A DNA stretch of 10,786 nucleotides, from assembly GCA_031273195.1 (NCBI GenBank), contig JAISSJ010000164.1:1-10786 (forward strand), read 5' to 3'. Position 1 is the stretch's first letter; every line of letters begins with the position of its first letter. This DNA comes from Candidatus Fibrimonas sp. Lineage in GTDB: Bacteria; Fibrobacterota; Fibrobacteria; Fibrobacterales; Fibrobacteraceae. A program made the translations under genes and the position numbers. Under the pieces are notes generated by a model that saw nothing but the letters and a program-made list of their open reading frames with translations, was not told the DNA's origin and ran no database searches. Of this stretch, positions 7,498-10,393 are shown in pieces.

Positions 7498-8169
7498 TCA
7501 TAAATACTTCGCCCCCTCCCTAACGCTCAACTTATCCATTCTATCCCTATGCTTATCTATAAAATCCCGAACCCATTTCTGATTAGTCTTGGAATATTCC
7601 CTCAAACTCCAGCCTATTGCCTTATTTATAAAGAATTCCTTTGTGCCAAGGCTGCCCAGTATTGCCCTTGATAAAATTTCAGTATTCGTATTTTCCTTGA
7701 ATGTCAACTGGCAATCTATAGACACTCTTTTCAGCCATATATTATCGCTTTTTATATATTCATCTATCTTGGCAATCAACTTCGGATATTTTGCCAAAAG
7801 CATGCCGATTAAACTATCAAGTGCGTCCACCGTATCCCACCAGGATTTGGTCACTATCAATTTCTCTATGTGCCTAATATCATCTTTGACTAAAACCGAT
7901 TTAAGGGCAATCAAATAATCTATGGCAAGGTATTGGAACTCTCTTTCTTCCTTGTTGTATAAATCAAACACCAAACTCCAGTCTATTTTATTTTTCCTCT
8001 TTTCCTCTTTTAAAAATTCCTTTTGCAGCAATGTCCTTGCAGGTTTGGGAATTCCCAAATAAGGAAATTTATCTTTCATGTATTTAGACATATCAAGAGA
8101 CTTTTTGGAATCTCTGTTTTTGTAGAAGGATTTTATGAGTTTGTTATAAAGATTTTGAATTGCTTGCAT
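7498..8169 (-). CDS. DNA alkylation repair enzyme (AlkD/AlkC-like HEAT-repeat glycosylase family, PF08713-like).
   Basis: 223 aa with motifs WWDTVD, NKAIGWSLREYSKTN and C-terminal LSVREGAKYL. GAGG SD lies 5 nt before the ATG. There is only a 29-nt gap from the upstream RhuM stop. Confidence 0.7.
   Translation of the reverse strand: MQAIQNLYNKLIKSFYKNRDSKKSLDMSKYMKDKFPYLGIPKPARTLLQKEFLKEEKRKNKIDWSLVFDLYNKEEREFQYLAIDYLIALKSVLVKDDIRHIEKLIVTKSWWDTVDALDSLIGMLLAKYPKLIAKIDEYIKSDNIWLKRVSIDCQLTFKENTNTEILSRAILGSLGTKEFFINKAIGWSLREYSKTNQKWVRDFIDKHRDRMDKLSVREGAKYL
7512..7679. repeat. Direct repeat copy A (168 bp), covering the last ~56 codons of the AlkD-like gene. Copy B is at 10178-10345.
   Basis: Aligned by eye: 9 mismatches and no indels over 168 bp (~94.6% identity). 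Similarity stops abruptly at both ends. Confidence 0.9.
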
Positions 8170-8198
8170 AATAGACCTCGGCGGTAATTTAAAAAATA

Positions 8199-9203
8199 TT
8201 ATGAAGTTTCTTCCAACAATTTATCAAAATCGCTTTTGAATAATTTATCTTGAATAATGCGATATTTTTCAAATTCGCTTTCGGCGAAGGCTTGGGCGAT
8301 TTCATGAGAAATTTTACCTATGCCGTCAGATAATTTTGCGTCATTTAAATTGAGAAATATATCCAATTTTTCTGCCCAGTCTCGCATTGTCATAGGAATA
8401 CGTTTACGTGCTTGCCTATTTGCGTAATCTAAATACATTTCCACTATTTCGTTTAATTCTTCTAGTTCCAATTTTGACAAGTAATTTTTTGCTACGGAAA
8501 CATCTGTCTTTATGATTTTTCCGTTAGGAGCATTTTTCCAATTTGTTAAGCCCATATTGATTTTTTTGTGGCTTGCTCGCTTGAATATTAACTCTGCGGC
8601 TGTATTTTGATGAATTGCAAAATGTAATTTATTTTGTACATTTGCAAAAAAATCTTTGGTTACTTGGCTGTCTTTGTTATAATCGTAAGAAGTTGCGTAA
8701 ATATCAGTTATTTTTTGGTAAAATTTTCTTTCACTTGCCCTAATTTCTTGAATCTCTGCTACAAGTTCGTCAAAATATTGTTGAGAAAACACTTGGTCGT
8801 TTATTAACCTCTGTTTATCTATGACAAATCCCTTTTTTGCAAATGTAGAAAGAATTGTCGTTGCCCATTGGCGAAATTGTATCGCTCTTTCGGAATCCGT
8901 TCTATAGCCAACTGCAACGATGGCTTCCAGAGAATAATGATTTACTTGGTATTTTTTTCCGTCAGTTGCAGTGTGTCGGAATTTCCGACATACTGAATTT
9001 TCGTTTAATTCTTTGTCTTTGAAAACATTTTGTAAATGTTCTAAAATAGTCGTTCGTTTTTTTTGAAAAAGTTCACAAAGAGCTTCAATTGTAAGCCAAA
9101 CATTTTCATCTTCTACCCGAACTTCTATTCCTTGCTCTCCATTTTGCCTAATGAAAACAAGAAAATCTGCGGTAGAATTACGAATTTGAAACTGCGTTTT
9201 CAT
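8199..9203 (-). CDS. rhuM: RhuM-family virulence-associated protein (Fic/DOC-associated 'RhuM' family).
   Basis: 334 aa with motifs CRKFRHTATDGKKYQVNHYSLEAIVAVGYRTDSERAIQFRQWAT, KGFVIDKQRL and ERKFYQKITDIYA. These strongly resemble RhuM-family proteins from islands and integron cassettes. Confidence 0.8.
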   Translation of the reverse strand: MKTQFQIRNSTADFLVFIRQNGEQGIEVRVEDENVWLTIEALCELFQKKRTTILEHLQNVFKDKELNENSVCRKFRHTATDGKKYQVNHYSLEAIVAVGYRTDSERAIQFRQWATTILSTFAKKGFVIDKQRLINDQVFSQQYFDELVAEIQEIRASERKFYQKITDIYATSYDYNKDSQVTKDFFANVQNKLHFAIHQNTAAELIFKRASHKKINMGLTNWKNAPNGKIIKTDVSVAKNYLSKLELEELNEIVEMYLDYANRQARKRIPMTMRDWAEKLDIFLNLNDAKLSDGIGKISHEIAQAFAESEFEKYRIIQDKLFKSDFDKLLEETS

Positions 9204-9451
9204 CTTGCAACGACAAGCCTTTCTGCAATATCATTTTTCGGCTTAATAGCCACGCCGTAATAAACACCTTGAATTGCCAACATAATAAACCTCTAAGGGA
9301 ATATAGAAAAATATCTTGCTTCCTAAAAATTGTATATTACACCCTAACCCACCAGCAAAAGGTATAAATTTGTAAATTTCATAAAAACTTTTACCAAGCA
9401 ACAATGTAATTTATTATATTTAAACTATGCCGAAAGATTTTGCATATTTGA

Positions 9452-9724
9452 TTATTTTCATATGACCCCAAATACCCTGATGGAAATGACTCTTTTGAAG
9501 CTGGTGTGCTACTTGTACTAGAAGTTCAAAAAAACAATTATAACGTTCCATTTCCATATACAGTTGGAATGTACGAAAGGATTAAACATAATGTGGAGCA
9601 ATATATGGTTAAACATGGCATAGCAAAAGTTAGTATGGGAGAAGGACTTGAAATTTATTATGAATTTGAATCCCCAGAGGCTAAGGCTAAATACTTAAAA
9701 AATGTTCAGAACCCTACCCCCTAA
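9452..9724 (+). pseudogene. Orphan C-terminal gene fragment with no ATG: ~90 open codons entered from a stop codon, with only an internal GTG. Product unknown.
   Basis: The frame reads LFSYDPKYPDGNDSFEAGVLLVLEVQKNNYNVPFPYTVGMYERIKHNVEQYMVKHGIAKVSMGEGLEIYYEFESPEAKAKYLKNV. It has no credible start or RBS and lies in AT-rich debris between RhuM and repeat copy B. Confidence 0.3.
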
Positions 9725-9840
9725 GATAGCTTTGGGAAATAATCATTGAGTAAGATGGAAAACTATATGTTGGTAATTTCTTTGGCGATGGCAAATTTTC
9801 TATATTCTTTGTGAATGTTGCATAATATGGAGAAATGGCT

Positions 9841-10189
9841 ATGGCGCTTCCGACAAAAGAAGAATATAAGAATATGAGTCTAGAGGAAAGAGCTTTTCAT
9901 AGAATTTGCACAAGAAACAGTAAAAAGTAAAACTTTACCTGAAGTCTATATACGTTTTCTCGAAGGGACACGTGAAGGCACAACTCTTCCTCAACCGTTA
10001 AAGGAAAATTTTTTTGAATATACAGATTATGAAAAATTTGAACGAAAAAATAAACAAATACGAAATACACGTAATTTTAAGAAAACCGGTGATTTTGGTC
10101 CGGCACTTAATAAATATGGGAAATCTGTTATGGATAATGTGAAAGATTGGCAAGAAGAAATAGCCGCTCGTATTATACCCCCTCCCTAA
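9841..10189 (+). pseudogene. Frameshifted gene remnant. A 29-codon ATG-initiated frame (9841-9930) overlaps a +1 frame that stays open for ~100 codons (9884-10189) with no start codon. Its stop lies inside repeat copy B.
   Basis: Frame A reads MALPTKEEYKNMSLEERAFHRICTRNSKK*. Frame B reads RKELFIEFAQETVKSKTLPEVYIRFLEGTREGTTLPQPLKENFFEYTDYEKFERKNKQIRNTRNFKKTGDFGPALNKYGKSVMDNVKDWQEEIAARIIPPP*. A single-nucleotide indel near 9884-9927 would fuse them. Confidence 0.3.
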
Positions 10190-10343
10190 CGCTCAACTTA
10201 TCCATCTTGTCTTTATGCTTATCTATAAAATCCCGCACCCATTTCTGATTAGTCTTGGAATATTCTCTCAAACTCCAGCCTATAGCCTTATTTATAAAGA
10301 ATTCCTTTGTGCCAAGGTTGCCCAGTATTGCCCTTGATAAAAT
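10173..10343 (-). pseudogene. Dead 3' fragment of a second AlkD-like gene (repeat copy B, 10178-10345). The frame is retained but is closed by an in-frame TAA, created exactly at the repeat boundary (10344-10346). There is no start codon.
   Basis: The minus-strand frame encodes ...LSVREGV* in the same frame as ...LSVREGAKYL* of the intact gene. At the upstream boundary the A/C difference (A at 10346 in copy B where copy A has C at 7680) turns GAA into TAA. Confidence 0.7.
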
Positions 10344-10393
10344 TTATGACTTCGTCATGCTTTGGCATAATGTAAATGTAGAAATTTCATTTT

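What the first reader, a model, noticed from the sequence alone, without database searches (positions are those of the whole stretch)
7512..10345. 168-bp direct repeats (~95% identical) duplicate the exact 3' end of the AlkD-like gene and bracket RhuM plus gene debris: recombination or integration scar
Copy A (7512-7679) is the last ~56 codons of the intact AlkD-like gene. Copy B (10178-10345) is 2,666 bp away and keeps the same reading frame and its own stop codon. It is truncated exactly at the repeat edge by a TAA created at the boundary, and has no start codon. Similarity ends abruptly at both ends of each copy. Between the copies lie the 5' two-thirds of the AlkD-like gene, a RhuM-family gene (a family typical of islands, prophages and integron cassettes) and ~1 kb of AT-rich frameshifted gene remnants. 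A target-gene 3' end duplicated at both borders of foreign DNA is the classic signature of site-specific integration into the 3' end of a protein-coding gene (attL/attR). Alternatively it reflects tandem paralogs with one copy destroyed. Either way, homologous recombination between the copies would excise or delete a ~2.7 kb segment.
Basis: seen in the sequence. Interest (0 to 1): 0.6.

Follow-up and report, generated by a model that had tools for sequence, protein, structure and literature searches.

The report
Decayed second copy of AlkD gene
The 168-bp direct repeat is real, but it is the leftover of a second, internally deleted copy of a DNA-repair (AlkD-like) gene in a fast-changing, defence-gene-rich region of a termite-gut bacterium, not the scar of a mobile element, so it is an ordinary pseudogene.

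Summary
The repeat is confirmed: 7512-7679 and 10178-10345 match at 159/168 (94.6%), same orientation, 2,666 bp apart. The attL/attR reading fails. Copy B is not a bare 3' end. The 41 nt just upstream of it (10386-10346) are the leader, ATG and first ~9 codons of an AlkD gene. Copy B is therefore a second AlkD gene (AlkD-B) that lost 455 nt internally, out of frame, at an AAA microhomology. An independent metagenome contig (L153) has the same DJ-1 | AlkD-B junction, but its deletions end at different points, which shows independent erosion of one ancestral full-length gene. Copy B is closer to alleles on other contigs (165/168 to L074) than to copy A, so it is not a fresh local duplication. 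The remnant lies upstream of the intact gene, the wrong order for integration into a gene's 3' end. The contig has no integrase. The window is a whole 10,786-bp contig of a Candidatus Fibromonas MAG. Its AT-rich right half is a mosaic region carrying candidate defence genes (RhuM = PDC-S05; DUF3791/DUF3990/65-aa = PDC-M13) and other relics: a third AlkD start stub and a helicase fragment. Interest is low.

The parts
7498..8169 (-). AlkD-A: intact AlkD-like DNA alkylation repair gene (223 aa; NCBI MDR1830776.1)
   Evidence: Pfam PF08713 E 8.2e-62 over 12-223. Identical to cluster member P0126. 92-95% nt identity to AlkD genes in L070, L074, L075-L080.
7512..7679 (-). Repeat copy A: codons ~168-223 of AlkD-A
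   Evidence: 5/168 differences from L070.
10178..10345 (-). Repeat copy B: 3' part of pseudogene AlkD-B (codons ~168 to near the end). It is followed by an apparent 9-nt in-frame deletion (my manual alignment) and then the native TAA. NCBI annotates it as the 56-aa protein MDR1830779.1.
   Evidence: 159/168 to copy A and 165/168 to L074. Block alignment to L075. P0130 sequence.
10346..10386 (-). 5' stub of AlkD-B: ~18-nt leader, ATG at 10368..10366, and the first 8.7 codons (MPKHDEVIK). It is joined out of frame to copy B across a 455-nt deletion at an AAA microhomology.
   Evidence: L138 6057-6100 matches window 10386-10343 at 91%. L075-L079 match 10371-10343 at 93%. Block alignment: ref 32-57 = 10371-10346, ref 513-680 = 10345-10178. 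Raw sequences.
10394..10786 (-). 3' part of a DJ-1/PfpI gene (runs off the contig end). Homology to other DJ-1 loci stops at 10383.
   Evidence: Pfam PF01965 E 3e-13. L150-L152 are 87% nt identical down to 10383 and have other genes downstream. L153 1-604 matches window 10744-10178.
9734..10177 (.). AT-rich spacer with broken + strand reading frames. No homologue was found, so its status as gene debris is unproven.
   Evidence: Six-frame translation. No hits in Pfam, PHROGs or NCBIfam. No homologue among 5.8 billion proteins for 9884-10186.
9506..9724 (+). Small conserved ORF (72 aa, GTG start) of unknown function
   Evidence: 91% nt identity to the L074 76-aa gene (L074 8981-9222). Protein comparison.
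9325..9372 (-). Recurrent upstream element ('P'). In relatives it lies between a divergent 1064-aa helicase gene and the DUF3791 or AlkD leader.
   Evidence: 96% to L075/76/78, 90% to two sites in L074, 93% to L140, 86% to L070.
9257..9310 (-). AlkD-C stub: AlkD type-1 leader, ATG (9283..9281) and ~9 diverged codons (MLAIQGVYY). It runs into a 26-codon ORF that ends at the RhuM start.
   Evidence: Direct repeat D2 with 8143-8196, 74%. L070 172-289 matches 9373-9256 and continues straight into AlkD with no RhuM.
8199..9203 (-). RhuM-family gene (candidate defence gene PDC-S05), lying between the AlkD-C stub and AlkD-A
   Evidence: Pfam PF13310 E 7e-101. PADLOC PDC-S05 E 2e-143. Absent from the equivalent position in L070 and L080.
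5920..7485 (-). SPFH/Band-7 (flotillin-like) gene between AlkD-A and DUF3791. It is absent at this position in L070 and L137.
   Evidence: Pfam PF01145 E 9e-16. L106 is 98% identical over window 7767-5912. In L070 AlkD is followed after 12 nt by the DUF3791 leader.
5850..5918 (+). Relic of the 5' part of the divergent helicase gene. About 200 nt, including the P element, are deleted.
   Evidence: L075 2955-3032 matches window 5918-5842 at 90%. Sequences. L075 2..3193 carries DEAD/Helicase_C/UvrD domains.
4929..5832 (-). DUF3791 / DUF3990 / 65-aa trio (candidate defence system PDC-M13 A/B/C). In relatives AlkD follows it directly; here homology stops at 4942 and cysK follows.
   Evidence: Pfam PF12668 and PF13151. 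PADLOC PDC-M13A/B/C. L075 3235-4142 matches window 5849-4942 at 93%.

Best explanation
The window is a complete contig of a termite-gut Candidatus Fibromonas MAG. Its AT-rich right half once held at least two AlkD-like genes in the same orientation. One sat directly downstream of the DJ-1/PfpI gene (AlkD-B). The other is AlkD-A, which is still intact. AlkD-B has since decayed. A 455-nt deletion at a 3-nt microhomology joined its codon ~9 to codon ~168, out of frame. What remains is leader + ATG + 9 codons + the last 56 codons. Those last 56 codons, compared with the same part of AlkD-A, are the '168-bp direct repeat'. The similarity stops abruptly at one end because that is the deletion junction. 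It stops at the other end because homologous genes in different contexts stop matching just after the stop codon. The DNA between the copies (small ORF, upstream element, a third AlkD start stub, RhuM, and the 5' part of AlkD-A) is not one inserted element. It is part of a mosaic, defence-gene-rich variable region that differs between strains. Judging from the deletion junctions I could read, the reshaping involves short-homology deletions and fusions. Shown: the anatomy of the remnant, its homology to full genes, the orthologous locus with different deletions, and the mosaicism. Inferred: that the ancestor had a full-length AlkD-B, and the order of events.
For: Repeat confirmed. The 5' stub sits directly upstream of copy B and is collinear with AlkD starts in L075-L079 and L138. 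The deleted length is 455 nt, not a multiple of 3. L153, from another metagenome, has DJ-1 followed by the same AAAATGAAATT, then AlkD codons ~17-24 joined to codons ~151-223, so its end points differ. Copy B differs from L074 at 3/168 and from copy A at 9/168. Copy A differs from L070 at 5/168. Other AlkD wrecks occur in the same lineage. L137/L138 carry an in-frame deletion between two AAAGGAATTYTT motifs. L140 and L142 carry 5' stubs. L142 and L071 carry short 3' pieces. L154-L156 carry a TGG>TAG nonsense allele. L001 carries a DUF3791'::AlkD fusion. L070 has upstream element-AlkD-DUF3791 without RhuM or SPFH. No integrase or recombinase domain is found in any window ORF tested, and there is no tRNA in the window.
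Against: No contig with a full-length AlkD-B next to DJ-1 was found; the closest DJ-1 homologues (L150-L152) have other neighbours. The stretch 9697-10177, which links copy B to the rest, has no independent support from another assembly. The contig ends 440 bp beyond copy B, so anything upstream of DJ-1 is unseen. Many breakpoints cluster near the AlkD start (around codons 1-9, counting the window 4942 module break 12 nt upstream of the ATG) and right at the stop codon. Random deletion does not obviously predict this, although selection for intact genes could explain it.
Confidence: 0.85

Rival explanations
1. attL/attR scar. A mobile element carrying RhuM integrated site-specifically into the 3' end of AlkD and duplicated 168 bp of the target.
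For: The repeats are direct and bracket a RhuM gene, a family often found in islands. The region is AT-rich compared with the left half of the contig.
Against: The order is wrong, with the remnant upstream of the intact gene. The remnant has its own leader, ATG and 9 codons. L153 shows the same locus with other deletion end points. The copies belong to different allele lineages and share at most 33 identical nt in a row. No integrase is present in the contig. The RhuM-free comparator L070 has its junction at the AlkD start stub, not in the 168-bp repeat.
Confidence: 0.03
2. Assembly artefact. The metagenome assembler joined two strains' AlkD loci, so the two copies never coexist in one genome.
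For: The contig comes from a MAG. The copies resemble alleles seen on different contigs. No second assembly spans 9697-10400.
Against: A chimeric join would occur inside a shared repeat, not create a remnant with unique flanks on both sides. L153 independently shows a DJ-1|deleted-AlkD junction. L071 and L142 also carry AlkD fragments beside a module or other AlkD pieces. L069 and L106 reproduce 8150-9696 and 5912-7767 at 100% and 98%.
Confidence: 0.05
3. Dedicated cassette exchange. The AlkD ends and the shared ~20-nt leader (TTTTCTATCTTYCCCTTATG) are recombination sites for an unseen recombinase that shuffles defence genes, and copy B is a by-product of that system.
For: Breakpoints recur at the AlkD start region (within about 9 codons of the ATG), right after the stop codon, and at the DUF3791 leader/codon 12-13 in several contigs (window, L001, L070, L142, L153). 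Different defence genes (RhuM, R-M systems, SPFH) occupy equivalent slots.
Against: No recombinase is seen on any of the related contigs inspected. The intergenic spaces are too short for attC-like sites (12-87 nt). The junctions I could read show 3-13 nt microhomologies at varied positions. Keeping only junctions that leave genes intact would produce the same clustering.
Confidence: 0.07

Closest known systems
Paralogue decay: a pseudogene formed by microhomology-mediated internal deletion
   Same: Collinear 5' and 3' remains of a gene lie in the same orientation as an intact homologue. The junction is out of frame at a 3-nt microhomology. The orthologous locus of another strain (L153) carries independent, different deletions.
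   Different: The two copies are not a recent in-situ duplication. Each is closer to alleles on other contigs than to the other, so one probably arrived or was exchanged by recombination between strains. A full-length ancestor at this site was not observed.
Integrative islands or prophages that insert into the 3' end of a gene and duplicate it as attL/attR
   Same: Direct repeats of a gene's 3' end bracket DNA that includes an island-type gene (RhuM) in an AT-rich region.
   Different: The remnant is upstream rather than downstream of the intact gene. It carries the gene's own start. There is no integrase, no shared identical core, and no empty site bounded by the repeat.
Defence islands / variable hotspots with candidate systems PDC-M13 (DUF3791-DUF3990-small protein) and PDC-S05 (RhuM) in PADLOC-DB
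   Same: Strong HMM matches to PDC-M13A/B/C and PDC-S05. Gene content differs between strains at the same slot: RhuM+SPFH here, R-M systems in L142 and L153, DUF6884+GIY-YIG in L074.
   Different: No defence function was tested here. In this lineage an AlkD-like glycosylase gene is attached to the PDC-M13 trio, which is not part of the PADLOC definition and was not seen at over 100 AlkD loci from other phyla.
Integron gene-cassette arrays
   Same: Same-strand, tightly packed small accessory genes, including RhuM.
   Different: No attC-sized intergenic sites (gaps of 12-87 nt), no integrase, and the repeat is coding sequence of a decayed gene.

Membership tests
attL/attR of an element integrated into the 3' end of a protein gene | Integrase/recombinase gene next to one att site | tested here: not met
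   No integrase, transposase or recombinase domain in any window ORF tested. The window is the whole contig, so DNA more than 440 bp beyond copy B cannot be seen.
attL/attR of an element integrated into the 3' end of a protein gene | Intact (reconstituted) target gene first, then the element, then the displaced 3' fragment downstream | tested here: not met
   On the coding (minus) strand the order is DJ-1, remnant, spacer, RhuM, intact AlkD. The remnant is upstream.
attL/attR of an element integrated into the 3' end of a protein gene | The partial copy consists only of the att-homologous 3' end | tested here: not met
   Leader, ATG and 8.7 AlkD codons lie directly upstream of copy B.
attL/attR of an element integrated into the 3' end of a protein gene | Related genomes show an empty site with one repeat copy and the bracketed segment precisely missing | tested here: not met
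   L153 keeps DJ-1|AlkD-B with different internal deletions and other downstream genes. L070 lacks RhuM and SPFH, but its junctions are at the AlkD start stub and the DUF3791 leader.
Decayed paralogue (pseudogene) of AlkD | Collinear 5' and 3' remains matching a full-length gene, same orientation | tested here: met
   Ref 32-57 = window 10371-10346 and ref 513-680 = 10345-10178 against the L075 AlkD.
Decayed paralogue (pseudogene) of AlkD | Reading frame destroyed | tested here: met
   455-nt deletion. From the ATG the frame runs 26 codons to a TAA (MPKHDEVINFIKGNTGQPWHKGILYK*).
Decayed paralogue (pseudogene) of AlkD | Independent lesions at the orthologous locus in other strains | tested here: met
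   L153: the same DJ-1 junction, with AlkD codons ~17-24 joined to ~151-223.
Decayed paralogue (pseudogene) of AlkD | A full-length copy at this position in some relative | tested here: inconclusive
   Not found among 156 fetched loci. The caps on the genome and metagenome scans were reached.
AlkD / PF08713 DNA alkylation repair family (gene 8169..7498) | Full-length match to the family profile | tested here: met
   PF08713 E 8.2e-62, covering profile positions 2-213 of 213.
AlkD / PF08713 DNA alkylation repair family (gene 8169..7498) | DNA glycosylase activity on alkylated bases | not testable with these tools
   Needs a biochemical assay.
PADLOC candidate systems PDC-M13 and PDC-S05 | HMM matches to all listed components, adjacent and on one strand | tested here: met
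   PDC-M13B E 1.5e-46, M13A E 9e-4 (weak), M13C E 3e-8, for adjacent or overlapping genes 5832..4929. PDC-S05 E 1.9e-143 for RhuM.
Integron cassette array | attC sites (about 60-140 nt imperfect palindromes) between cassettes, and an IntI integrase | tested here: not met
   Intergenic gaps of 12, 29 and 87 nt. No long inverted repeat at gene boundaries. No integrase.

The most novel reading that the evidence does not exclude
The region may be a hotspot in which defence genes (RhuM, R-M systems, SPFH, the PDC-M13 trio) are swapped by recombination at a few preferred short sequences: the AlkD start and stop regions and the shared ~20-nt leader. In that case AlkD fragments such as copy B would be footprints of the exchange. 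In addition, the AlkD-like glycosylase may be a functional fourth component of PDC-M13 in Fibromonas, for example countering DNA modification by the ART-like DUF3990 protein.
Probability: 0.08. Interest if true: 0.55.

Novelty: new member of a known kind. Interest (0 to 1): 0.15.

Why it matters
It matters little beyond this genome. It corrects a tempting misreading, because a duplicated gene 3' end is not by itself an att site. It flags the 56-aa 'DNA alkylation repair protein' MDR1830779.1 as a pseudogene piece. It also documents that this Fibromonas region is a strain-variable mosaic of candidate defence genes, with AlkD copies that are repeatedly duplicated, fused and eroded. The only lead of wider interest is the lineage-specific coupling of an AlkD-like glycosylase to the PDC-M13 trio.

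Tried and rejected
- Exact-protein look-ups for AlkD-A and CysK found nothing. The RhuM look-up returned only a 1.5-kb Logan contig identical to the window, so the contig could not be extended beyond DJ-1.
- Rfam at permissive E-values gave only one chance-level hit, unrelated to the region.
- The promoter/terminator scan was at shuffle level.
- The spacer ORFs (9452-9721, 9754-10186) had no significant hit in Pfam, PHROGs or NCBIfam; only sub-threshold matches (Pfam DUF7376 E 0.048; phrog_26003 E 5.6e-4). ORF 9884-10186 had no homologue in the 5.8-billion-protein search, so 'gene debris' there stays unproven.
- DJ-1 neighbours (L150-L152) did not give a DJ-1 + intact AlkD 'ancestral' site.
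- I first assumed the 99- and 105-aa cluster members were the L137/L138 mini-AlkD. They are the two halves of a nonsense allele (L154-L156).
- An apparent excess of A>G changes in copy A was dropped, because L070 shares them.
- MAFFT misplaced the short 5' stubs. The block alignment and the BLAST hits are the basis for the stub.
- The integron idea was rejected on intergenic spacing and the lack of attC or IntI.
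Full report
**What the window is.** The cluster look-up shows that the 223-aa AlkD-like protein is MDR1830776.1 and the 56-aa product of copy B is MDR1830779.1. Both come from a 10,786-bp contig of a MAG named Candidatus Fibromonas sp.. 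The window is therefore the whole contig. Its left half (GC ~50-58%) carries ordinary genes: a Fib_succ_major lipoprotein, a CoaE-MurB fusion, an ABC ATPase and a CysK-like PALP enzyme. At about position 4900 the GC content drops to 30-40%. From there on, all the annotated protein-coding genes lie on the minus strand; the small ORF at 9506-9724 is the exception. In minus-strand order they are:
- DJ-1/PfpI (off the end..10394)
- copy B
- about 1 kb of spacer
- RhuM (9203..8199)
- AlkD (8169..7498)
- an SPFH/Band-7 gene (7485..5920)
- DUF3791, DUF3990 and a 65-aa gene (5832..4929)

No tRNA gene, integrase or recombinase is present.

**Check of the observation.** The repeat is real. Regions 7512-7689 and 10178-10355 match at 93% over 178 nt, with a spacing of 2,666 nt. 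The next-best direct repeat in the window is 54 nt at 74%. Copy A is the last 56 codons of the intact PF08713 gene. Copy B keeps the frame, shows 3 amino-acid changes, and ends in a TAA.

**The key correction.** Copy B is not a bare 3' end. Read on the minus strand, the DJ-1 stop codon (TAG, 10396..10394) is followed by AAAATGAAATTTCTACATTTACATT-ATG-CCAAAGCATGACGAAGTCATAAA, and then by TTTTATCAAGG..., the start of the repeat.
- The 29 nt ending at the repeat edge match the start of the AlkD genes of L075-L079 at 93%.
- The 44 nt from 10386 match the leader and start of the L138 AlkD at 91%, and in L138 the match runs straight on into the gene.
- A block alignment against the L075 gene gives ref 32-57 = window 10371-10346 (24/26) and ref 513-680 = window 10345-10178 (159/168). 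The missing stretch is 455 nt.

So copy B is a second AlkD gene, AlkD-B. It has a 455-nt out-of-frame internal deletion at an AAA microhomology. The 'TAA created at the boundary' is the 5' ATA-AAx read in the 3' frame. From the ATG the frame gives MPKHDEVINFIKGNTGQPWHKGILYK*. At the 3' end, by my reading of the sequences, B differs from full genes by an apparent 9-nt in-frame loss and then shares the native TAA. Similarity therefore stops just after the stop codon, as expected for homologues in different contexts.

**An orthologous locus.** L153 is a 2.9-kb contig from JGI metagenome 3300042614. Its positions 1-604 align to window 10744-10178 at 86%. After the DJ-1 stop it has the same AAAATGAAATT. 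It then keeps AlkD codons ~17-24 (CAAAGATTCCAAAAAATCTTTTGA) joined to codons ~151-223, with the native ...GAKYL* end. The junction to DJ-1 is the same but the deletion end points differ. The simplest ancestor is DJ-1 followed by a full-length AlkD-B that has eroded independently in two lineages. Downstream, L153 carries:
- a C5 methyltransferase and a 209-aa gene
- a helicase relic
- the DUF3791 leader plus 13 codons
- the 3' end of dnaE, 99% identical to L075

This ties the DJ-1/AlkD-B site to the locus seen in L075-L078: helicase(-) - upstream element - DUF3791 - DUF3990 - 69 aa - AlkD - MTase(-) - dnaE(-).

**Allele relationships.** Over the 168 nt, copy B differs from L074 at 3 positions and from copy A at 9. 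Copy A differs from L070 at 5. The two copies belong to different allelic lineages, so they are not a fresh duplication made by an insertion event.

**What lies between the copies.**
- Region 9492-9733 is a small + strand ORF conserved in L074 (91% nt).
- Region 9325-9372 is a recurrent upstream element. In L075/76/78 and L070 it sits between a divergent DEAD/UvrD-type helicase gene and the first gene of the module.
- Region 9310-9257 is the leader, ATG and ~9 diverged codons of yet another AlkD start. It forms a 54-nt, 74% repeat with 8143-8196.
- L070 shows the same upstream element and leader running directly into AlkD. There AlkD is followed after 12 nt by the DUF3791 leader, so L070 lacks both RhuM and SPFH.
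- Region 9734-10177 has no detectable relative.
- Region 5918-5850 is a relic of the helicase gene, with about 200 nt including the upstream element deleted.
- Homology to the L075 module stops at 4942, which is 12 nt before the point where that module's AlkD would start.

**The lineage is full of AlkD wreckage.**
- L137 and L138 have an in-frame deletion between two AAAGGAATTYTT motifs (LQKEF|FINK).
- L140 and L142 have 5' stubs.
- L142 has an R-M pair inserted after codon 54, plus a 53-nt AlkD piece fused to the DUF3791 start.
- L071 has the last ~28 codons of AlkD upstream of a complete module.
- L001 (Ca. Fibrimonas termitidis) has a DUF3791'::AlkD fusion next to tRNA-Lys.
- L154-L156 carry a TGG>TAG allele in three samples.

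**Gene content.** PADLOC matches make DUF3791/DUF3990/65-aa the candidate system PDC-M13 and RhuM the candidate system PDC-S05. The AlkD/PDC-M13 linkage is confined to this lineage among the 156 loci examined.

**Interpretation.** The direct repeat is the 3' part of a decayed paralogue set against the same part of an intact one, inside a strain-variable mosaic region rich in candidate defence genes.

The att model fails on five counts:
- Topology: the remnant is upstream of the intact gene.
- Content: the remnant has its own start.
- Comparison: L153 and L070 contradict it.
- No identical core is shared by the two copies.
- No integrase is present.

Two refinements apply: the copies are allelically distinct, and the segment between them is itself a patchwork.

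The remaining doubts are these:
- No full-length AlkD-B was found next to DJ-1.
- The stretch 9697-10177 has no independent assembly support.
- Breakpoints cluster at the AlkD start and stop and at the shared leader. I attribute this to survival of junctions that leave genes intact, but I cannot prove it.

**Comparison with known systems and novelty.** The mechanism is ordinary pseudogene formation by microhomology deletion within a defence-island-like hotspot. It resembles att duplication only superficially and fails every defining test I could run. It is a new instance of a known kind. The minor points of value are an annotation correction and the lineage-specific AlkD/PDC-M13 association.

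Noticed in passing
window 4929-5832 and 7498-8169; L071 993-2567; L075 3282-4813 (also L076-L079): In related contigs DUF3791, DUF3990, a 64-69-aa gene and AlkD form one tight operon with overlapping ORFs. The first three match the PADLOC candidate system PDC-M13. The AlkD linkage is seen only in this Fibromonas lineage and in none of more than 100 AlkD loci from other phyla.
   Followed up: partly
window 9257-9310 vs 8143-8196, flanking RhuM (8199-9203): RhuM sits between two imperfect copies (74-76%) of the AlkD ribosome-binding site, ATG and first ~9 codons. L070 and L080 have a single copy and no RhuM. How RhuM arrived there is unexplained.
   Followed up: partly
window 9325-9372; L074 7118-7156 and 9276-9323; L075 3191-3238; L140 1223-1266; L070 ~172-240: A ~48-nt upstream element (ATTTATACCTTGTGCTGGTGGGTTAGGGTGTAATATACAA) recurs in front of different genes, twice in L074. 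It is probably the divergent promoter region of a helicase gene, copied along with segmental duplications.
   Followed up: partly
AlkD start region (around codons 1-9) and stop codon, across window, L001, L070, L074, L142, L153: Rearrangement breakpoints cluster at the AlkD start and immediately after its stop; one further end point lies at codon 17 (L153). Two alternative 5' ends exist (MQAIQNLYN... and MPKYDEVIK...). Whether this reflects a hotspot or selection for intact genes is not resolved.
   Followed up: partly
window 10173-10343: NCBI annotates copy B as a 56-aa 'DNA alkylation repair protein' (MDR1830779.1), whose first residue corresponds to an ATT codon in the window. It is a pseudogene fragment.
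   Followed up: yes
L142 596-2436; L153 650-2318: Restriction-modification gene pairs occupy the slot next to AlkD remnants in two related contigs. In L142 the insertion splits AlkD after codon 54.
   Followed up: partly
L153 1-350: The DJ-1 gene of L153 appears frameshifted relative to the window's copy. This could be a pseudogene or an assembly error.
   Followed up: no
window 1894-1932 and 2463-2501: A 39-nt inverted repeat (92% complementary) made of GAGTTGA-type short repeats lies inside the CoaE-MurB fusion ORF, with the arms 530 nt apart.
   Followed up: no
window ~4885-4945: GC content falls from ~55% to ~35% exactly where cysK ends and the minus-strand accessory genes begin. Outside this lineage, the closest AlkD relatives are mostly Firmicutes-type at ~55% identity, which suggests the region was acquired horizontally.
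   Followed up: no
window 5920-7485; L106: A 521-aa SPFH/Band-7 protein with a long charged coiled-coil-like tail lies between AlkD and DUF3791 here and in L106 (98% identical), but not in L070 or L137.
   Followed up: no
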